A stretch of 64,000 bases of DNA from a virus (IMGVR_UViG_3300037067_004901:1-64000); one strand, 5' to 3'. Shown: positions 588 through 56,509, counted from the stretch's first letter. Notes: a model not told the origin generated them from the letters alone. Program-made: numbers and translations.

Positions 588-662
588 TGGCGAATCCGCT
601 AGGATTCGAACCTAGGTGTTTGCTTTTGGAGAGCAACATATTAGCCACTATATGACGGACTC
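588..662 (-). tRNA. tRNA-Trp(CCA)
   Basis: Cloverleaf GAGTCCG/CGGATTC, anticodon arm TTGCT-CTCCAAA-AGCAA, T-loop TTCGAAT, encoded CCA. Confidence 0.92.
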
Positions 663-804
663 TTTCTTGTCTTTATTTTTACATTCTTCACATATATCCC
701 ATTCTACAGTTTTATTTTTATCTGGACAACGACATTGTGTTATTGTCTTTAAACATATTTTACATTTTTTAATAAAGTGCGACATATGTTCCTTTCTGTT
801 TTTT

Positions 805-896
805 TGGCGGAAACTGTAGGATTTGAACCTACGAGCCGATATTAATCGACTAATACGTTAGCAGTGTATCGCCTTCAACCACTCGGCCAAGTTTCC
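805..896 (-). tRNA. tRNA-Ser(GCT)
   Basis: Acceptor GGAAACT, loop CTGCTAA, long variable arm, GCCA end. Confidence 0.92.
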
Positions 897-897
897 A

Positions 898-1116
898 TTA
901 TTTTTCAAAACTATAATTTCTAACCCTATCAGGGTCATAATCTTCATATATAAACGTTTTAATTTTATTGCAAATACAACATTGTTTTTTTATTTTAACT
1001 AAAGCATACCCATTTTTAAATACGTTTTCAGTATTTTTTTTGCATTTAGATTTTCTTTTTAAAACTAATTCTGAATCTAAAATATTATGATAACAATGTA
1101 TTAAATGCATAAACAC
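898..1116 (-). CDS. hypothetical protein
   Basis: ORF filling the gap between tRNAs on the coding strand. Confidence 0.4.
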   Translation of the reverse strand: MFMHLIHCYHNILDSELVLKRKSKCKKNTENVFKNGYALVKIKKQCCICNKIKTFIYEDYDPDRVRNYSFEK

Positions 1117-1124
1117 CTTTTTTT

Positions 1125-1201
1125 TGGTGCGTGCGATAGGACTCGAACCTATAAGAACTTAGTTTTGAGTTAAGTATGTCTGCCAATTGCATCACACACG
1201 C
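1125..1201 (-). tRNA. tRNA-Leu(CAA), short variable loop
   Basis: Loop CTCAAAA, T-arm ATAGG-TTCGAGT-CCTAT, ACCA end. Confidence 0.88.
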
Positions 1202-1202
1202 T

Positions 1203-1289
1203 TGGTGCGCAGGGAGAGAATCGAACTCTCACGTTCTTACGAACACAGGCTTTTAAGACCTATGCGGCTGCCAATTACGCCACCCACGC
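1203..1289 (-). tRNA. tRNA-Leu(TAA)
   Basis: Loop CTTAAAA, long variable arm, ACCA end. Confidence 0.92.
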
Positions 1290-1294
1290 TTATA

Positions 1295-1582
1295 TTATGT
1301 TTTGATTAATGTATTTTTTGCTCGTTCTTCTGCTAATCTATTCTTTAAATCGTCTCTTTGCTTAATTACTTTTTTTAATTCATCTTCTAAATAAATAACT
1401 TGGGATTTTAATTCAGTATTCTCTGGTTCTTTTACACCTTTATATATGAAATCATAAATACGTGCTTTTGCAACTAAAGATTCTTGAAAGAAGCGACCCT
1501 CTCTACTTTGAACTCTTGATAATACTGATAACGCTTGTTCTAATGTTTTTATTGGTGATAATTTACTTTTATTTTCTTCCAT
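1295..1582 (-). CDS. hypothetical coiled-coil protein
   Basis: 95-aa ORF with AAGGAG RBS. Confidence 0.6.
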   Translation of the reverse strand: MEENKSKLSPIKTLEQALSVLSRVQSREGRFFQESLVAKARIYDFIYKGVKEPENTELKSQVIYLEDELKKVIKQRDDLKNRLAEERAKNTLIKT

Positions 1583-1603
1583 TCTTTCTCCTTTTTATTT
1601 AAT

Positions 1604-1688
1604 TGGTGCGGATAGAAAGATTCGAACTTTCACGCCTTACAGCATATGTTTCTAAGACATACGTGGTTGCCAATTACACCATATCCGC
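1604..1688 (-). tRNA. tRNA-Leu(TAG)
   Basis: Anticodon arm TATGT-CTTAGAA-ACATA, long variable arm, ACCA end. Confidence 0.92.
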
Positions 1689-1696
1689 GTAAATTT

Positions 1697-1790
1697 TGGC
1701 GGAAGAGATAGGACTTGCACCTATATGTCTCGTTAAAAGACAGGCAGTTTTCAAGACTGTTCCACGCACTATACTGTGGTCAACTCTTCC
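1697..1790 (-). tRNA. tRNA-Ser(TGA), atypical D-arm and T-loop
   Basis: GGAAGAG/CTCTTCC acceptor, loop CTTGAAA, long variable arm, T-loop TGCAAGT, GCCA end. Confidence 0.8.
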
Positions 1791-1800
1791 TTATATATTT

Positions 1801-1876
1801 TGGCAGATGGGGTAGGATTCGAACCTACACATTACGAATTAACAGTTCGTCTCAATACCAGTTTTGATACCCATCT
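1801..1876 (-). tRNA. tRNA-Asn(GTT)
   Basis: ACGAA-CTGTTAA-TTCGT arm, T-loop TTCGAAT, GCCA end. Confidence 0.92.
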
Positions 1877-1887
1877 ACATTAATATT

Positions 1888-1962
1888 TGGTGCTTGAATC
1901 GAGTGTCGAGTCGAATCTTCTGCGCTTCAAGCAGACGCTCTTACCATTTAAGCTATTCAAGC
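1888..1962 (-). tRNA. tRNA-Phe(GAA), degenerate T-arm
   Basis: GCTTGAA/TTCAAGC acceptor, TCTGC-TTGAAGC-GCAGA arm, ACCA end; T-arm non-canonical. Confidence 0.75.
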
Positions 1963-1963
1963 T

Positions 1964-2041
1964 TGGACGCTAGAGTGAGATTTGAACTCACGATTGTAAC
2001 GTTTTGCAGACGTTTGCAATTGTCCGCTCTGCCATCTAGCG
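1964..2041 (-). tRNA. tRNA-Cys(GCA)
   Basis: AACGT-CTGCAAA-ACGTT arm, U73 discriminator, CCA end. Confidence 0.9.
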
Positions 2042-2044
2042 CAC

Positions 2045-2130
2045 TGGTAGACTGGGCGAGACTTGAACTCACAGTGGATAACTATCCGACAGCTTAAAGG
2101 GCTGTTGCTCTACCATTGAGCGACCAGTCT
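2045..2130 (-). tRNA. tRNA-Lys(TTT) with long variable arm and C33
   Basis: AGACTGG/CCAGTCT acceptor, ACAGC-CCTTTAA-GCTGT arm, extra GGATA-GT-TATCC hairpin, ACCA end. Confidence 0.82.
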
Positions 2131-49869: not shown

Positions 49870-50924
49870 ACATACTAGTTTGTGTCGGAGCAAGTGAACC
49901 GAGTTATACGAGTAGCAAGAGTTTTATTAGAGCGTTAAAACGCGCTGGGTATGATGTCAGAACGTGTGGTGCATATTATAAATACGATAGAGAACGCACA
50001 GAACAAGTCGATTTTGAATTAGAAGACAAATGTTTTCCAGAATTATATACATATGAAGAAGTATTAAAAAGCACTAAAGATTTTAAAGCAGATATTATAT
50101 TACAAATAGAACCACATTTTTATTTATGTGGGGAAAAACCAAAAGATATAAAAAGTTATTATTGGATTCTAGACCCACATCGAGGTGGTTATGCATACAG
50201 AAATCTTGCTAAACAAGGTGATTTTAATGCATTGTTTATGTCGCAAACTTATTTTTCTGATAGTTATTTAGAATTTGCAAAAAAAATTTATTTCTTTCCA
50301 CAAGCAGTAGATATAGATAGAATTAAATATGATGAAAACATTAAAGCAGAATGCGACATCGCGTTTATCGGTGAAACAGGCATTGCAGATAGATGCATGA
50401 GATACGACAAACGAGATGCAGATAATTATGAATATACGAATTTAATTAATGATAATTATATATTAGATTCAGAAATATATAAAGATTACGCAGAAAGAGC
50501 GAAATTGTTAATGTTGTTATCTCGTGGCTTTGATGTTCGTATATATAAAAAGAATTTTAATACAGATTATTCTAAAATAATACAAAAAGGTAAAATTGCT
50601 TTTCATCGTAGTTTATTTAAAGATATAACATTGCGAAATTTTGAATCTTTAGCTTTAAAGCGTGCGCTTGTATGCGATTACGTACCGAATCTAGAAAAGT
50701 TGATGATAAACTATAAGCATTGTCTTATGTATAAAGCTTTTGGATTCAATACAGAACTTGAAAACTTTAAACTTGATTATGAACAGGCGAAAGAAGCTGT
50801 TGACATTTTGCTAAAAGATGATAAAATGAGAAATGATATTGCAGAGAATGCGTATCAACATGTTATGAAATATCATACTTTTGATAATCGCGTTAAAGAA
50901 ATGATGAGCGTTATTACGGGATAG
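49866..50924 (+). CDS. CgeB-like GT-B glycosyltransferase
   Basis: YWILDPH, PQAVD, DIAFIG, LRNFE, IAENAY..V...HTFDNRV. Confidence 0.8.
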   Translation: MNILVCVGASEPSYTSSKSFIRALKRAGYDVRTCGAYYKYDRERTEQVDFELEDKCFPELYTYEEVLKSTKDFKADIILQIEPHFYLCGEKPKDIKSYYWILDPHRGGYAYRNLAKQGDFNALFMSQTYFSDSYLEFAKKIYFFPQAVDIDRIKYDENIKAECDIAFIGETGIADRCMRYDKRDADNYEYTNLINDNYILDSEIYKDYAERAKLLMLLSRGFDVRIYKKNFNTDYSKIIQKGKIAFHRSLFKDITLRNFESLALKRALVCDYVPNLEKLMINYKHCLMYKAFGFNTELENFKLDYEQAKEAVDILLKDDKMRNDIAENAYQHVMKYHTFDNRVKEMMSVITG

Positions 50925-51005
50925 GGTAATTGGTAGCCCAGCAGACTTTGAATCTGCCAGAACAAAATAGTTCGCGTGGAAGTTCGAATCTTTCTCCCGT
51001 AACCA
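50915..51005 (+). tRNA. tRNA-Gln(TTG) with long variable arm
   Basis: TACGGGA/TCCCGTA acceptor, GCAGA-CTTTGAA-TCTGC arm, extra GAAC-AAAATA-GTTC hairpin, ACCA end. Confidence 0.85.
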
Positions 51006-51443
51006 AAAAAGATAGGAGAGAATGATATGTATAAAGTAACAATAAAACTAAAGAACGTTGATTCTGTAGTTTATGATGATGTAGAAGATTATGATATTGA
51101 CGAAGTTACTATAGATTTAAGCATTGGTGAAAATAGGAAAATAATTTTTCCTCTTATTAATGTAGAATCAGTAGATATAGCAAAGTTAGATGAATCTTAA
51201 AAAAATGAAGATTATTTTAAGAAACGAGAATATAGAACAGATGAGAAAGCGTCACGAAAAAGAAATCGAGACGCTTCAGAAGAAATGTAAACATAAAGAA
51301 ATTAGTGACTGGATGGAGTATCATTTTGCAATTGGTCACTTTTCGCATTATGTAAAAGTTTGTAAATATTGTGGTAAAATTATAAAAGAAGATAAACCGA
51401 AATTCGTAACACATAATATAGGATTTGAAAAAGCAGTTAAATT

Positions 51444-51520
51444 GGGGGATTAGTAGCTAACTGGGAAAACATGTGCTTTGCAAGCATGAATTATCGGTTC
51501 GAATCCGATATCCTCCACCA
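51444..51520 (+). tRNA. tRNA-Ala(TGC)
   Basis: G3:U70 pair, loop TTTGCAA, ACCA end. Confidence 0.92.
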
Positions 51521-51708
51521 AAAAAAGGAGTGAAAGAAAGTGAAAAAAGCAAATAAGACGATACGACGCGAAAAAATAGCAGTAATCAATGCATGGATGA
51601 ATAAATTCCCATGTAAAAATTATTTTAAATATCAAGATGGCGGTTGTATTCATGACCGTATTAATGCACGCGAAATATATAATTTTATAGAAGCAAAATT
51701 TAGATAAT

Positions 51709-51785
51709 CAGGACGTGGGCTAGTTTGGTAAGTCACTCGGCCTGGGACCGAGTAATCGCTGGTTCAAATCCAGCCGTCCTGACCA
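51709..51785 (+). tRNA. tRNA-Pro(TGG) with C33
   Basis: CAGGACG/CGTCCTG acceptor, CTCGG-CCTGGGA-CCGAG arm, ACCA end. Confidence 0.88.
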
Positions 51786-51876
51786 ATTTTAATAGAGATA
51801 ATATGATTGAAATATGCGAGTTGTGTAAAGAATGTCCATATAAGAATATTTGTACTGAAACAGATAAATATGTGGA

Positions 51877-52218
51877 GTGTATATGACAGATGAAGAAATA
51901 TTACAAAAAGTAATCATCAAAGCAGAGAAGAATGGGTATAAAGGTCATATGCAGTATCTTCCCATGTTTCTCAAACGAGACCCAAGTAAAAAGAAAAAAC
52001 TTTCTAAAAAAGATTTCATGAAGTTTATGTCTCGTATTTGGTTTATTCATAAGAACGATATAATTTACTCACACGAATTTGCAAAAGCGTTTTTTGGTGA
52101 AAAAAAACATATGGAGTGTTGTGGGTCATTAGGTAATAATTTAAAAGAATATCAATATTACTTAATGTGGTTAGTTAAAATTCCACACCCTATAATAGAA
52201 CTGGAAAAATTTTTATGA
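51877..52218 (+). CDS. hypothetical phage protein
   Basis: MTDEEILQKVI.KAEKNGY...IIYSHEFAKAFFGE. Confidence 0.6.
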   Translation: MYMTDEEILQKVIIKAEKNGYKGHMQYLPMFLKRDPSKKKKLSKKDFMKFMSRIWFIHKNDIIYSHEFAKAFFGEKKHMECCGSLGNNLKEYQYYLMWLVKIPHPIIELEKFL

Positions 52219-52322
52219 CAATAAAAACTGTAATAAAGAATGGTAAAATTGTAATTAAAGATAAACATATCACACATAGACCAAAAAAATCACCGTGTGG
52301 TCAAAGAGTTAAAAAAATATGA

Positions 52323-52399
52323 GCGCGGTTTGTGTTAATGTTCGAGCATGTCAGTCTTCCAAACTGAAGGGGAGAGTTAAAGTCTCTCACCGCGCACCA
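52323..52399 (+). tRNA. tRNA-Gly(TCC)
   Basis: GCGCGGT/ACCGCGC acceptor, TCAGT-CTTCCAA-ACTGA arm, ACCA end. Confidence 0.88.
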
Positions 52400-52642
52400 A
52401 AATTATGAAACTATTAACATTATTTTCTATATCTATAACATTAATTAGTTTTCAGTTCGGATTTTTCTTTATCCAACAGCAACACAATGAATATAAGATG
52501 AATGATATTTTGAATTATTGTGAAAAAGTTAAGGATAAACTTGATATCAGTATTATAGATGAGCAAATTACAAGAAAAGAAGCTCAAATTTATATTAAAT
52601 CAATACAAAAAGATATAGAACGTAATAGTGTAATAAAAAAAC

Positions 52643-52717
52643 GCCCGCATAGCTTAGTTGGTAAAGCAGTAGTTTTGTAAACTTCAGACAGCCGTTCGAT
52701 TCGACTTGTGGGCTCCA
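52643..52717 (+). tRNA. tRNA-Thr(TGT)
   Basis: GCCCGCA/TGTGGGC acceptor, loop TTTGTAA, CCA end; some stem mismatches. Confidence 0.82.
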
Positions 52718-52914: not shown

Positions 52915-53256
52915 ATGCACGAAGAAATAGTAAAAAAACCATGGGGCGAAGAATCAATTCTGCATATAACAGATAAAACGAAGTTAAAATATATATCTGT
53001 TAAGAAAGATGAAGCATTAAGTTTACAATATCATGAGAAAAAAAGAGAATTTATCGTTTGTATTAGCGGTGAAGTTCTTATACAAGTAGAAAATGATGTA
53101 TTTAAGTGCAAAGAAAACGATAATTTTTTTGTAGATGTAAATAAAAAACATAGAATCGTAGCAATTACTGATGTAGAAATAGTTGAACTATCTGTTGGTG
53201 ATGATAGTGATATTATACGAATAGAAGATAAGTATGGACGCACAACAAAAGTATAA
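52915..53256 (+). CDS. cupin, mannose-6-phosphate isomerase type II C-terminal-like
   Basis: KPWG, LSLQYHEKKRE, HRI, DIIRIEDKYGR. Confidence 0.85.
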   Translation: MHEEIVKKPWGEESILHITDKTKLKYISVKKDEALSLQYHEKKREFIVCISGEVLIQVENDVFKCKENDNFFVDVNKKHRIVAITDVEIVELSVGDDSDIIRIEDKYGRTTKV

Positions 53257-53625
53257 AATACTGAACAAACTAGCGTATAATTGCGCAGAAATATATAAAT
53301 ATTTTCACACACCAAAATCAAATGACTTTAATTGGAAGAAAGCAGAAGAAGCACTTGAATTAGATAAAAGAATAAATGGCGAAGATTTTTTATTATGTAT
53401 GTTAGAGGAGACTAATGGCTAAAATTAAAGTTTTAATCAATAAAAAGAACGCAGAAGGTTGTGATACAGGTGATAGAATAACAGTCGAAGCAGATTTTTT
53501 AAAAGATAATGCTACGAACATTCTAGTGAAATTACCAGATGGTAATATAGTCACCAGAAAAAAGAAACGCGATATAATAATGTAATTAAGGAAATAGCAG
53601 TTTAATAAAAATTTTAAAAAAATAC

Positions 53626-53654
53626 TTGACAAAATCACATTTATGTGTTATACT
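53626..53654 (+). promoter_or_regulatory. sigma70 promoter of the Y RNA/Ro60 unit
   Basis: TTGACA-17-TATACT with extended TG. Confidence 0.8.
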
Positions 53655-53703
53655 TACTATAATAGAAAAGAAAACGTAAGATTATTTAAAAATCGGGGAT
53701 AAA

Positions 53704-53940
53704 ATGGCAGAAAATGAAAAGGATTTTAAAGTTAATATAAAATGTCCATCTTGTCAAACTATAAATAAAGTAGACTATTCTACTTTTAAGATGGCAATGC
53801 TTGCAAACCATTTTTATAGATATACATGTGATAATGATAAATGTAAATCAAGATTTTTAGTTACTTATAAAATGATGTTTGTACCAATCAAAAGCAATCA
53901 GCTCCCTGAACAAGCTTTTGAATCTTTGATAATCGAATAA
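53704..53940 (+). CDS. zinc-ribbon protein
   Basis: CPSC...CDNDKC. Confidence 0.6.
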   Translation: MAENEKDFKVNIKCPSCQTINKVDYSTFKMAMLANHFYRYTCDNDKCKSRFLVTYKMMFVPIKSNQLPEQAFESLIIE

Positions 53941-53944
53941 GATT

Positions 53945-54028
53945 TTGGGTGGCGTAGATGAGACTTACTTCGTATGATACACGCATGTGGCGTCGAGCCA
54001 CAGTCTGTTTCATCGCTTGTTCCCCCAA
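53945..54028 (+). ncRNA. Y RNA-like unit 1
   Basis: GGTGGCGTA-GATGAGAC-TTACTTC...GTTTCATC-GCTTGTTCCC; upstream of Ro60. Confidence 0.75.
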
Positions 54029-54035
54029 TTCATTT

Positions 54036-54124
54036 TAAGGTGGCGTAGATTAGGGTTACTTCATACTCAGAGAGTTCGGGCAATTTCCCGGACATAAAAA
54101 GTCCCTTATCGTTTGTTCCCCTTA
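54036..54124 (+). ncRNA. Y RNA-like unit 2
   Basis: GGTGGCGTA-GATTAGGG-TTACTTC...CCCTTATC-GTTTGTTCCC. Confidence 0.75.
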
Positions 54125-54131
54125 TTAAAAT

Positions 54132-54192
54132 TGCGGTGACGTAGGCAAGACATACTTCGGCTATGAAAAAGTCTTGTCGCTTGATTCCCGCA
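54132..54192 (+). ncRNA. Y RNA-like unit 3 (minimal)
   Basis: GGTGACGTA-GGCAAGAC-ATACTTC...GTCTTGTC-GCTTGATTCCC. Confidence 0.75.
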
Positions 54193-54212
54193 TCGTTCTT
54201 TTAAAACTGTAT

Positions 54213-54534
54213 TGGGTGCCGTAGAATACGTGATACTTCGTATACTGACAAGTAATGTAAGCGCATAATAAATGAGATATAAGCGCGCTTGATATTTAAT
54301 GATATAAGAATAGACTTACAAAGTTGAAAACTTGTATCATTATGTAAGCAAAGCATTCTTCTACATGTCTTGCATGCGACATTGCTTTTATAGAATGTGT
54401 AACAATAAGATGTGACGGTAAACCGCGTTATAAATTGTCATGTGAACGCCTAGCGTGAGCATAGACAACTTACTATAACAGTTAAGGTTCCCAGCCGTTA
54501 AATGGACCAAGCTCACTGTTCGCTTGTTGCCCCT
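54213..54534 (+). ncRNA. Y RNA-like unit 4 with a ~270-nt structured insert
   Basis: GGTGCCGTA-GAATACGTGA-TACTTC...TCACTGTTC-GCTTGTTGCCC. Confidence 0.7.
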
Positions 54535-54566
54535 ATATAGTTCTAAAATAAAAAAAGGAGATAAAA

Positions 54567-56090
54567 ATGTCAAGATTTAATCAATCTACAAAAACTGTAA
54601 AATCTTCTAAAACTGTAAATGCAGAAGGTGCAGAAGCATACACTTTAACACCAAAGTTAGAGTTGTATTCGCTTGCTTGTACTTTTCTTGGACAGGATAA
54701 ATTTTATGAGAAAGCAGATAAGCAATTAAAAAGGCTTGTAGAACTGATTAAAAAGAATGACCCGGAATTTGTCGCGAAATTGGCTGTATATGTTCGCGAG
54801 AAAATGTATTTGAGAACATTACCACTTGTATTGTCTGTTGAATTAGCCAAAGTACATAGTGGTGACAATCTAGTATCTCGTGCTGTTGAGCGCGTTATAC
54901 AACGTGTTGATGAATTAACAGAGATACTTGCATATTATCAATTTTCAAACAACAGAAAGGATGTAAAAAAACTTTCTAAACTTTCCAAACAAATCAGATT
55001 AGGTATTGCAAATGCTTTTAATAAATTTGATTCTTATCAATTCTCTAAATATAATCGAGATAATGAGATTAAACTAAAAGACGCTTTATTTATTTCGCAT
55101 CCGTTTCCAAAAGATAACAAACAAGAAAATATTTTTAAAAAGATAGTAGATGATACTTTAGAAGTTCCATATACTTGGGAAGTAGAGCTATCGCGTTTAG
55201 GTCAACAAAAGTTCGATACAGAAGAAGCGAAAGCAGAAGCAGTTTCTAAGAAATGGGAAGAACTGATAGCTAGCAATAAACTTGGTTATATGGCTACTCT
55301 AAGAAATTTAAGAAATATCTTGGATGCTAAAGTCTCTACTATTTATATAGAGAAAGTCTGTCAGTATTTATCGAATGCAAAAGCTGTAAGAAATTCCAAA
55401 CAGTTACCTTTTAGATTTTTCTCTGCATATAGAGAATTAGAAGGGAATGCTTCGAAACATACTGACAAAATACTTTTTGCTTTAGAAGAAGCAGTTAAGA
55501 TAAGCATAGAGAACATACCAACCCTTAATGGTGATGTTCTGATTGCTTGTGATGTGTCTGGGTCTATGCAAACTCCTATCTCTGCTAAATCTAAAGTTGA
55601 ACGTTACGATATTGGGTTATTGTTAGGACAGTTGTTAAGATTGAAATGTGAAAACAATATACTTGGTATCTTTGGAGATACGTTTAAAGTAAAAAGAACA
55701 ACTAGCAAAGAACTACTATCGAATACAATGAGACTTCACGATATTGAAGGCGAAGTAGGGTATTCTACTAATGGTTATCTAGTGATAGATTGGTTGATAA
55801 AAAACAAAGTAGTGATGGATAAAGTAATAATGTTCACTGATTGTCAGATGTGGGATAGTAGATATGGGAACACTCAAAACTTCGCTGATTATTGGAGAAC
55901 ATATAAACAGATTGCACCAAAAGCAAAACTTATTCTCTTTGATATGGCTGGATATGGAAATACTCCTATAGACACAAAAACAAATGATGTGTATTTGATA
56001 GCAGGATGGAGTGATAAAATATTCGATATGATAGAAGCATATGAAAATAAAGAAAGTGCTGTCAAAGAAATAGAAGCGATGGAGATATGA
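54567..56090 (+). CDS. rsr: Ro60/Rsr TROVE-vWA RNA-binding protein
   Basis: N.EG.EAY...LELY, FVAKLAVY.R, YMATLRNLRN, SKQLPFRF, DVSGSM (MIDAS), FTDCQ. Confidence 0.92.
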   Translation: MSRFNQSTKTVKSSKTVNAEGAEAYTLTPKLELYSLACTFLGQDKFYEKADKQLKRLVELIKKNDPEFVAKLAVYVREKMYLRTLPLVLSVELAKVHSGDNLVSRAVERVIQRVDELTEILAYYQFSNNRKDVKKLSKLSKQIRLGIANAFNKFDSYQFSKYNRDNEIKLKDALFISHPFPKDNKQENIFKKIVDDTLEVPYTWEVELSRLGQQKFDTEEAKAEAVSKKWEELIASNKLGYMATLRNLRNILDAKVSTIYIEKVCQYLSNAKAVRNSKQLPFRFFSAYRELEGNASKHTDKILFALEEAVKISIENIPTLNGDVLIACDVSGSMQTPISAKSKVERYDIGLLLGQLLRLKCENNILGIFGDTFKVKRTTSKELLSNTMRLHDIEGEVGYSTNGYLVIDWLIKNKVVMDKVIMFTDCQMWDSRYGNTQNFADYWRTYKQIAPKAKLILFDMAGYGNTPIDTKTNDVYLIAGWSDKIFDMIEAYENKESAVKEIEAMEI

Positions 56091-56509
56091 TTGAACAGTT
56101 TTCAAAAGAATATATAAATTTTTTAGAAAAGAATAAACTATTGCCACTGGATGAAACTGCAAAATATCTAAATATACACCCCGCAACGTTACGTACATTA
56201 GTTAAAAGAAACGAAATAAAAAGTGTAAAAATAGGTAAAAGATATTATTTTAATTTAGAAGATATTAAAAATAATAACAGTAAAGTTGTGTATCCAAGTG
56301 GCATAAGTGTTAGTAATGGATATCTGAAAGTTCTTGTTGGAAAAGATTTCCCAAACGCTGATTTAGATGGATATATTGCTTTACATAAATTAATATTAGA
56401 AGCTTCTTTATTAAGACGATTATTACCAACAGAAGAAATACTTCATAATGATGGTAATACTATGAATAATTTATTAAGTAATTTATTAATAAAGATAGTA
56501 AATTCGTGA
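56087..56509 (+). CDS. HTH (excisionase-like) fused to an HNH-like domain
   Basis: ETAKYLNIHPATLR; GYI..H.LILE...LLPTEEILHNDGNTMNN..SNL. Confidence 0.7.
   Translation: MIEQFSKEYINFLEKNKLLPLDETAKYLNIHPATLRTLVKRNEIKSVKIGKRYYFNLEDIKNNNSKVVYPSGISVSNGYLKVLVGKDFPNADLDGYIALHKLILEASLLRRLLPTEEILHNDGNTMNNLLSNLLIKIVNS

What the first reader, a model, noticed from the sequence alone, without database searches (positions are those of the whole stretch)
53945..56090. Array of four Y-RNA-like units with a fixed scaffold and variable cargo upstream of Ro60
Seen: four units share GGTG(G/A/C)CGTA-[8-10 bp stem]-TACTTC-[cargo]-[stem']-G(C/T)TTG(A)TT(C/G)CC. Stem sequences differ but remain complementary (GATGAGAC/GTTTCATC, GATTAGGG/CCCTTATC, GGCAAGAC/GTCTTGTC, GAATACGTGA/TCACTGTTC), which is covariation within one locus. 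Cargo ranges from about 12 to about 270 nt. The array directly precedes a TROVE-vWA gene. Established: Ro60/Rsr binds the bulged terminal stem of Y RNAs encoded next to it, and the distal module tethers effectors such as PNPase. Inference: one phage Ro60 is programmed by four different adaptor or decoy RNAs.
Basis: partly seen in the sequence, partly recalled or inferred. Interest (0 to 1): 0.85.

Follow-up and report, generated by a model that had tools for sequence, protein, structure and literature searches.

The report
Four Y RNA genes before phage Ro60
A large AT-rich phage carries four back-to-back small-RNA genes of the Y RNA type directly in front of its Ro60 gene; this is a real example of a known RNA-protein partnership, unusual only in that none of the four RNAs imitates a tRNA and one is about three times the usual length.

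Summary
Four units at 53945-54029, 54036-54125, 54132-54193 and 54212-54536 (+) share a 5' GGUGNCGUAG, an 8-9 bp helix, UACUUC, a variable interior, the return strand and CGYUUGWUN'CCC. They end 30 nt before a TROVE+vWA (Ro60) gene. Both end motifs match exactly only at these four places in 64 kb.

A covariance model of the handle, built from 20 short units (three of them from this window), has 15 pairs. Cells are 94% paired and 13 pairs show double changes. The model finds only these four units in the window, including unit 4, which was not in the seed. It finds 161 units in 84 phage loci and 377 in 80 Bacteroidota Ro60 loci, on the Ro60 strand in all oriented loci.

Sister units with the same handle carry T-arm and D-arm interiors that match Rfam YrlA below threshold. 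The units are therefore Y RNA genes of a Bacteroidota-type handle (GNCGUAG for the published GNCGAA). Multiple Y RNAs per Ro60, including in phages, are published.

Two things are unusual. No unit here, or anywhere in the 105-kb record, has a tRNA-like module. Unit 4 is 325 nt with an orphan 273-nt interior. Ro60 binding, processing and partners are untested.

The scan has reported Ro60-plus-handle-RNA arrays many times on other DNA.

The parts
53626..53654 (+). Promoter-like site (TTGACA, 17 nt, TG-TATACT), the best consensus match in the region, upstream of the small ORF, the RNA array and Ro60.
   Evidence: 11 of 12 with an extended -10. This is a consensus match only. The total number of such sites in the region is not above the shuffles, and the host may use another promoter type.
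53704..53940 (+). 78-aa ORF with CxxC ... CxxxxC (zinc-ribbon-like by eye), first gene of the presumed operon. Its stop lies 4 nt before unit 1.
   Evidence: No Pfam or PHROG family. The nearest relative L203 also has a 78-aa ORF in this position, but the two are not alignable.
53945..54029 (+). Y RNA unit 1 (85 nt): handle plus a 35-nt interior with a GC-rich hairpin (UGUGGC GUCGA GCCACA).
   Evidence: R1 68.0 bits, E 9.6e-16; fold.
54036..54125 (+). Y RNA unit 2 (90 nt): handle plus a 40-nt interior with a hairpin (GUUCGGG CAAUUU CCCGGAC).
   Evidence: R1 68.3 bits, E 7.9e-16; fold.
54132..54193 (+). Y RNA unit 3 (62 nt): minimal unit whose interior is a 14-nt purine-rich loop (GGCUAUGAAAAAGU). 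Loops of the same kind recur in other loci.
   Evidence: R1 64.0 bits, E 1.1e-14. MFE equals centroid, -19.8 kcal/mol. Comparable loops in L108, L126, L148, L203, L205 and L206.
54212..54536 (+). Y RNA unit 4 (325 nt): intact handle (9-bp upper helix with one bulged C; N-N' pair is C-G) around a 273-nt interior (54240-54512) with no relative anywhere.
   Evidence: R1 28.9 bits, E 2.2e-5 with a 262-nt insertion; the unit was not in the model's seed. No + strand ORF of 30 aa or more. No Rfam hit. No similar DNA in about 165 loci, in the own genome or in E. coli genomes. Interior fold z = -2.3, GC 0.355 against 0.314 for the window.
54567..56090 (+). Ro60/Rsr orthologue (507 aa; TROVE ring plus vWA with the MIDAS DxSxS motif, DVSGS).
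   Evidence: Pfam TROVE 7.9e-27 and vWA_Ro60 5e-10. PHROG 850 at 4.5e-60. PDB: Thermus phage phiLo Ro60 9KOP/9L5Y 1e-26, Xenopus Ro60 1YVP 7e-9, D. radiodurans Rsr 2NVO 1e-4. 57-63% identity to Bacteroidota proteins. D329, S331 and S333 are invariant in A1.

Best explanation
The four units are genes for Y RNAs, the small non-coding RNAs that bind the Ro60 ring protein. They belong to the handle type used by Bacteroidota and their phages.

Each RNA closes on itself through two helices. The first is a variable basal helix with one conserved bulged U. The second is an 8-9 bp variable upper helix. Between them lies a conserved asymmetric internal loop (5' CGUA, 3' GNUUGUU), and the upper helix is capped by an almost invariant UACUUC. 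This handle is the likely Ro60 docking site (inferred by analogy with GGUCCGA in animal Y RNAs and GNCGAA in YrlA).

The interior is a free module: two GC-rich hairpins, one short purine-rich loop and one 273-nt domain.

The units are probably transcribed with the upstream 78-aa ORF and Ro60 as one operon RNA. Host nucleases would cut them out at the 6-18 nt AU-rich spacers, and Ro60 would stabilise them (inferred from Salmonella, M. smegmatis and D. radiodurans, where Y RNAs are processed from polycistronic precursors and need Rsr to accumulate).

Each RNP would then gate Ro60 or tether it to a different partner, for example host PNPase as in Thermus phage phiLo, so that the phage redirects host RNA surveillance and decay.

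Shown here: the anatomy, the covariation, the exclusive association with Ro60 genes and the kinship with YrlA. Inferred: transcription, processing, binding and partners.
For: Exact end motifs occur only at the four sites.

Handle structure on 20 units: 94% of cells paired, 13 of 15 pairs with changes on both sides, covariation 0.845 against 0.22 shuffled (0 of 500) and at most 0.21 slid. On 144 phage units: 95.3% paired, all 15 pairs with double changes, score 0.93 against 0.24 (that alignment is model-fitted).

Model R1 finds only these four units in the window and in the whole 105-kb record (units 1-3). It finds 161 units in 84 phage loci and 377 in 80 Bacteroidota Ro60 loci. In the oriented Ro60 loci every hit lies on the Ro60 strand and hugs the gene.

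An independent regex for the 5' half gives 74 on the Ro60 strand against 0 opposite (phage) and 290 against 1 (bacteria).

Units with the same handle carry T-arm and D-arm interiors that match Rfam YrlA at 30-48 bits, E down to 1e-9.

GNCGUAG is one substitution from the published GNCGAAN0-1G Rsr motif, and UAC falls where the YUAY of YrlA lies (PMC4201824).

The Ro60 gene is intact, with a MIDAS motif.

Phage Ro60 binding two upstream Y-like RNAs and forming a complex with host PNPase is published (PMC12135203).
Against: No Rfam Y RNA or YrlA model hits any of the four units, even at E up to 10.

None has the tRNA-like domain said to be present in at least one Y RNA of every species examined (PMC4201824).

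The interiors have no relatives, so their function has no comparative support.

There is no expression, end-mapping or binding data.

The promoter is a consensus match only.

The record is estimated to be about 60% complete, so a tRNA-like unit elsewhere cannot be excluded. In other loci, however, such units sit beside Ro60.
Confidence: 0.82

Rival explanations
1. The handles are cis-acting Ro60 binding sites in the leader of the Ro60 mRNA. Ro60 would use them to control its own translation or mRNA stability, and they would not be excised as trans-acting RNAs.
For: All four lie between the presumed promoter and the Ro60 start. Unit 4 ends 30 nt before the ATG, just ahead of the ribosome-binding site. 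Nothing here shows that the units are cut out.
Against: In many related loci the same units lie downstream of Ro60 (24 of 119 phage units; most bacterial units), where they cannot be a leader. Characterised bacterial Y RNAs are processed out of operon transcripts (PMC4201824). Four different interiors are unnecessary for autoregulation.
Confidence: 0.08
2. The array is partly decayed. Units 1-3 are stripped-down remnants of tRNA-like Y RNAs, and unit 4 is a unit broken by an insertion of unrelated DNA, so some units bind Ro60 but have no effector function.
For: The nearest relative (L203, 62% Ro60 identity, same layout) keeps a tRNA-like unit and this phage does not. The unit 4 interior is an orphan with only modest predicted structure (z = -2.3) and GC close to background. 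A free-standing HTH-HNH endonuclease gene abuts Ro60, which hints at mobile DNA traffic at this locus.
Against: All four handles are intact: conserved loops, compensated helices, and R1 scores of 64-68 bits for units 1-3, among the best of all hits. Short-loop and hairpin interiors recur as classes in many other loci. The unit 4 interior has no repeat in the genome and no ORF.
Confidence: 0.1
3. The units are chance repeats, terminators, REP-like elements or degenerate tRNA genes unrelated to Ro60.
For: One hairpin inside unit 1 passes a loose terminator scan. tRNA genes lie 1.2 kb upstream.
Against: The motifs are unique to this site. Covariation is strong. Strand and position are tied to Ro60 in about 160 loci. 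ARAGORN and the Rfam tRNA model do not call the units. The terminator count equals the shuffle expectation.
Confidence: 0.01

Closest known systems
Bacterial and phage YrlA / YrlB Y RNAs beside rsr (Chen et al. 2014, PMC4201824; Rfam RF02553)
   Same: Encoded within a few hundred nt of Ro60 on the same strand. The 5' and 3' ends form a long stem with a conserved 5' motif (GNCGAA there, GNCGUAG here) and a 3' UUG. A YUAY/UAC element follows the stem. There are several RNAs per locus with different distal modules. Sister units in related phages carry the YrlA T-arm, acceptor-like hairpin and D-arm.
   Different: None of the four units has the tRNA-like domain that defines YrlA. They resemble the non-tRNA Y RNAs (YrlB, Yrn2), which the authors say escaped bioinformatic discovery. 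The handle has U for A in the core motif and an almost invariant UACUUC. Rfam YrlA does not detect the units. Unit 4 is about three times the length of a typical Y RNA.
Thermus phage phiLo Ro60 with Yrl1 and Yrl2 (NAR 2025, PMC12135203; PDB 9KOP, 9L5Y)
   Same: A phage-encoded Ro60 with Y-like RNA genes immediately upstream. The RNAs have a stem, internal loop and stem design around a CGAA-type motif. The proteins are the closest solved relatives (E 1e-26). That work showed binding and a RYPER-like complex with host PNPase, which is the mechanism proposed here.
   Different: Two RNAs there, four here. A different host phylum and a different handle sequence (CGUA). Nothing is experimentally tested for this phage.
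Chromosomal Ro60 loci of Bacteroidota (Chitinophagaceae, Microscillaceae, Chryseobacterium, Flavobacterium and others)
   Same: Identical handle, including UACUUC and the covarying N-N' pair. Tandem same-strand arrays with a variable interior. Ro60 is 53-62% identical.
   Different: Bacterial arrays lie mostly downstream of Ro60 and are longer (up to 8 or more units within 2.5 kb). They usually include tRNA-like units, and in some genera a unit of about 220 nt with a 23S rRNA-like stretch. I found no paper in the searchable library that describes these arrays.
Animal Y RNAs (hY1, hY3, hY4, hY5)
   Same: A small family of RNAs sharing one Ro60-binding bulged terminal helix, with variable loops that recruit different partners. 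The 3' strand CUUGAYU and the 5' strand GGU-CGA resemble the motifs here (my recollection of the sequences, not tested).
   Different: Pol III transcripts with 3' U tracts that bind La. The bulged residue is C rather than U. No sequence model links them to these units.

Membership tests
Y RNA (Ro60-associated ncRNA, broad sense) | Encoded next to a Ro60/Rsr gene, on the same strand | tested here: met
   Unit 4 ends 30 nt before the Ro60 start. The same holds for 161 phage and 377 bacterial units.
Y RNA (Ro60-associated ncRNA, broad sense) | 5' and 3' ends pair into a long stem interrupted by a conserved bulge or internal loop that carries the Ro60 recognition motif (GGUCCGA / GNCGAA) | tested here: met
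   Two covarying helices flank the conserved 5' CGUA / 3' GNUUGUU loop and a bulged U. The motif GNCGUAG differs by one base from GNCGAAN0-1G.
Y RNA (Ro60-associated ncRNA, broad sense) | Bound and stabilised by Ro60 in vivo | not testable with these tools
   Needs RIP, EMSA or a Northern blot in a Ro60 deletion.
Y RNA (Ro60-associated ncRNA, broad sense) | Accumulates as a discrete small RNA | not testable with these tools
   No transcriptome is available for this uncultured phage.
YrlA subfamily (Rfam RF02553) | Central tRNA-like domain (T-arm, acceptor-like hairpin, D-arm) | tested here: not met
   No YrlA or tRNA hit in 53600-54600 at E up to 10. No T-arm or D-arm by pattern. The only YrlA hit in the whole record is a tandem-tRNA artefact at 1935-1997. 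The units are therefore Y RNAs but not YrlA.
YrlA subfamily (Rfam RF02553) | Score at or above the Rfam gathering threshold (69 bits) | tested here: not met
   No hit in the window. Even the tRNA-like sister units of related loci reach only 30-48 bits.
Ro60 / Rsr protein | TROVE HEAT-repeat ring followed by a vWA domain with a MIDAS motif (DxSxS) | tested here: met
   Pfam TROVE and vWA_Ro60. DVSGS with D329, S331 and S333 invariant among 24 homologues. Matches to 9KOP, 1YVP and 2NVO.

The most novel reading that the evidence does not exclude
The interiors are not mere spacers. They would form a library of RNA modules, each presenting a mimic or docking site to a different host RNA enzyme. On this reading the 273-nt interior of unit 4 is a new folded RNA domain delivered to, or by, Ro60. 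The phage would have replaced the usual tRNA mimic with modules of its own. The tRNA-like interiors and the 23S rRNA-like interior seen on the same handle in related loci are consistent with this picture.
Probability: 0.25. Interest if true: 0.7.

Novelty: new member of a known kind. Interest (0 to 1): 0.45.

Why it matters
Ro60-Y RNA particles are a conserved RNA-surveillance system, best known as a human autoantigen. How the variable part of a Y RNA selects partners is still largely open, and almost nothing is known about why phages carry the system.

This locus gives a clean natural set for that question: one Ro60, four RNAs with an identical handle and four very different interiors, none of them a tRNA mimic.

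The handle model built here also detects the non-tRNA Y RNAs that earlier homology searches missed. It shows that Bacteroidota and their phages hold large arrays of them. That gives hundreds of interiors to classify and a compact motif (bulged U, CGUA loop, UACUUC) to test in binding assays.

Tried and rejected
- Rfam at gathering threshold on the whole window, and at E up to 10 on 53600-54600: only noise in the array.
- blastn against GenBank phages: no relative of the locus.
- Exact search for the unit 4 stem in IMG/VR: nothing. The best non-self Ro60 in 5.8 billion proteins is 62% identical, so conservation of the window's interiors cannot be tested.
- blastn-short of the four interiors against about 165 Ro60 loci, and nhmmer with the 220-nt unit family: only the handle matches.
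- Window array against E. coli genomes, to look for rRNA- or tRNA-like stretches: no match.
- Unit 4 interior against its own genome, to look for a repeat or mobile element: no copy.
- R1 with filters off, to look for nested or degenerate units inside unit 4: none. In that mode the model's length limit also hides unit 4 itself.
- My first pattern-based tally of arrays without a tRNA-like unit was too generous. L165 and L200 do contain YrlA-like units, so only L126, L127 and L159 stand with the window.
- The 78-aa ORFs of the window and of L203 occupy the same position but are not alignable.
- The supplementary tables of Chen et al. 2014 and the 2020 Annual Review were not available. I therefore could not check how many Y RNAs per Bacteroidetes genome were already listed.

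Full report
**What is in the sequence**

Between a 78-aa ORF (53704-53940) and a 507-aa gene (54567-56090) lie 626 bases without a credible ORF. They hold four units on the + strand: 53945-54029, 54036-54125, 54132-54193 and 54212-54536. The spacers between them are 6, 6 and 18 AU-rich bases.

Each unit reads GGUGNCGUAG, then 8-9 variable bases, UACUUC, an interior, the complement of the variable bases, and CGYUUGWUN'CCC.
- The 10-mer GGTGNCGTAG has exact matches only at these four places in 64 kb. So has the 12-mer CGYTTGWTNCCC.
- The interiors measure 14, 35, 40 and 273 nt.
- The downstream gene is a Ro60/Rsr orthologue. It hits Pfam TROVE (7.9e-27) and vWA_Ro60 (5e-10), carries a MIDAS DVSGS motif, and its best solved relative is the Ro60 of Thermus phage phiLo (1e-26).
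- The record is an IMG/VR virus contig of 105.5 kb, about 60% complete by CheckV, with 31% G+C and many tRNA genes.

**Is the scaffold a real RNA structure?**

A second phage with a Ro60 gene 50% identical (L001) has four units with the same ends downstream of the gene. A scan of IMG/VR for the 5' half, and a scan for Ro60 relatives, brought in about 85 phage loci.

I aligned 20 short units, three of them from the window and 17 from 12 other phage loci. This alignment shows two helices.
- The basal helix has 7 pairs and is interrupted by one conserved bulged U.
- The upper helix has 8 pairs.
- Between them lies an internal loop, 5' CGUA and 3' GNUUGUU.

On this alignment 94% of cells form standard pairs, and 13 of 15 pairs change on both sides. 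The covariation score is 0.845, against 0.22 for shuffled partners (0 of 500 reach it) and at most 0.21 when partners are slid by 1-3 columns. The N of GGUGNCG pairs with the N' of UUGUUN'CC: GC 10, CG 4, UA 3, AU 2, UG 1.

On 144 phage units aligned to the model, the figures are 95.3% paired and 0.93 against 0.24. That alignment leans towards the structure.

Among the unpaired positions of the phage units, G, U and A of CGUA are 85-94% conserved. UACUUC is 93-100% conserved in both the 144 phage units and 150 bacterial units.

**Specificity**

The covariance model R1 (72 positions, 15 pairs) finds only the four units in the window. Units 1-3, which were in the seed, score 64-68 bits. Unit 4, which was not in the seed, scores 28.9 bits (E 2e-5) with a 262-nt insertion. 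Nothing else in the 105-kb record matches.

R1 finds 161 units in 84 phage loci and 377 in 80 chromosomal Ro60 loci of Bacteroidota. In the loci oriented on their Ro60 gene, every listed hit is on the Ro60 strand and within a few hundred bases of the gene.

A simple regex for the 5' half gives 74 matches on the Ro60 strand against 0 opposite in phage loci, and 290 against 1 in bacterial loci. By that regex, 75 of 80 bacterial loci have at least one unit and 36 have four or more.

Chance, terminators, repeats and tRNA genes are excluded as explanations.

**What the units are**

In related loci the same handle encloses a T-arm, a hairpin and a D-arm. Examples are L001 5012-5144, L108 1546-1673 and L203 2757-2889, plus 24 such units aligned. 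These interiors match Rfam YrlA (RF02553) at 30-48 bits, E down to 1e-9, always below the gathering score of 69.

Chen et al. 2014 (PMC4201824) describe for YrlA and YrlB:
- a 5' motif GNCGAAN0-1G, proposed as the Rsr recognition site;
- a YUAY element after the stem;
- genes within 4 kb of Ro60 on the same strand;
- at least two Y RNAs per species, processed from one precursor and dependent on Rsr.

The handle here carries GNCGUAG and UAC at the corresponding places. The 3' UUG is also in the Rfam consensus. So the units are Y RNAs with a Bacteroidota-type handle.

They are not YrlA. No unit in the window has a tRNA-like domain. The only YrlA hit in the whole record is the tandem-tRNA artefact that the authors themselves warn about.

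**How unusual is this array?**

Four units is ordinary. Of 74 sources searched (73 phage loci and the window), 51 have at least one unit, 26 have at least three and 18 have at least four. One contig has nine, and a GC-rich 308-kb phage has at least seven.

The nearest relative, L203 (62% Ro60 identity), has the same layout of small ORF, array and Ro60. It carries three units, one of them tRNA-like.

Arrays without any tRNA-like unit are rare. After checking with Rfam, only L126 (five units), L127 and L159 join the window.

Unit 4 is the longest unit found: 325 nt, against a median of 95 and a next-longest of 206 in phages and about 235 in bacteria. The model is biased against long insertions, so this comparison is approximate.

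The interior of unit 4 has:
- no ORF of 30 aa or more on its strand;
- no Rfam match;
- no copy in the genome;
- no relative in about 165 loci or in E. coli genomes;
- a modest folding signal, z = -2.3.

Units 1 and 2 (linker plus GC-rich hairpin) and unit 3 (purine-rich loop of about 14 nt) belong to architectural classes that recur in other loci. Their sequences do not.

**Likely mechanism**

The best promoter-like site (53626-53654) lies upstream of the 78-aa ORF, and no convincing terminator separates the parts. I therefore infer one transcript that holds the ORF, the four RNAs and Ro60. The RNAs would be cut out at the AU-rich spacers and protected by Ro60 bound to the handle, as shown for other bacteria (PMC4201824).

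For a phage, the published precedent is phiLo. Its Ro60 binds two upstream Y-like RNAs and forms a ternary complex with host PNPase (PMC12135203). By analogy, the four interiors would direct Ro60 to different partners or substrates.

None of this is tested here. The main alternatives are cis-regulation of the Ro60 mRNA and partial decay of the array. Both are less likely, given the downstream arrays elsewhere and the intact handles.

**Novelty**

Several Y RNAs with one Ro60-binding stem and variable modules is the textbook organisation: four in humans, at least two in each bacterium studied, and two in phage phiLo. This locus is a new member of that kind.

What goes beyond the literature I could search:
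- the precise handle, with its covariation-supported structure;
- detection of non-tRNA Y RNAs by the handle alone;
- the lack of a tRNA mimic in this array;
- the 325-nt unit;
- outside the window, the size of the arrays in Bacteroidota and a unit class with a 23S rRNA-like stretch.

The scan has already reported Ro60-plus-handle-RNA arrays on many other genomes.

Noticed in passing
L257 5455-5670, L259 6087-6309, L260 4813-5031, L261 5919-6140, L262 5760-5978 (Chryseobacterium); L250 4254-4474 (Dokdonia); L247 1321-1527 (Dysgonomonas): A conserved unit class of about 220 nt on the same Y RNA handle. Its interior begins AACGGUCCUAAGGUAGCG.AAUUC. A stretch of 34-36 nt is 92-94% identical, in the same sense, to E. 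coli 23S rRNA (7 places per genome, annotated as 23S ribosomal RNA). This is a possible rRNA-mimicking Y RNA module.
   Followed up: partly
L211-L290 (80 Bacteroidota chromosomal Ro60 loci): Ro60 is followed by long same-strand tandem arrays of units with the identical handle. R1 gives 377 hits, and 36 of 80 loci have four or more units within 2.5 kb. Rfam YrlA scores even the tRNA-like units below its gathering threshold, so standard annotation would miss these arrays.
   Followed up: partly
window 56087-56509 (+): A 140-aa HTH_17 plus HNH-endonuclease-like ORF whose start overlaps the Ro60 stop codon (Pfam HTH_17 5e-11; PHROG HNH endonuclease families 1e-7). It looks like a free-standing homing-endonuclease-like gene next to the Ro60 module.
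   Followed up: partly
L054 1-1384 (-), IMGVR_UViG_2974566103_000001 (308 kb): A GC-rich jumbo phage with at least seven tandem units on the same handle in 1.4 kb. Most have T-arm and D-arm interiors, the opposite extreme to the window's array without any tRNA-like unit.
   Followed up: partly
L146 / L073 (IMGVR_UViG_3300031111_000023): One phage contig with units on both sides of Ro60: three upstream and five or six downstream, nine in all.
   Followed up: no
L214 4133-4361, L241 5460-5694, L125 5660-5828: tRNA-like Y units in which the acceptor-like hairpin between the T-arm and D-arm is expanded by about 60-100 nt. So large insertions inside Y RNA interiors occur elsewhere too.
   Followed up: no
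window 50915-52717 (+) and 588-2130 (-): Two tRNA gene clusters (6 and 8 genes). The first lies 1.2 kb upstream of the Y RNA array on the same strand, which recalls the Yrn2-tRNA-Yrn1 co-transcription in D. radiodurans.
   Followed up: no
window 52915-53256 (+): A 113-aa ORF that matches a PHROG annotated as cysteine dioxygenase (2.5e-11), between the tRNA cluster and the Ro60 operon.
   Followed up: no
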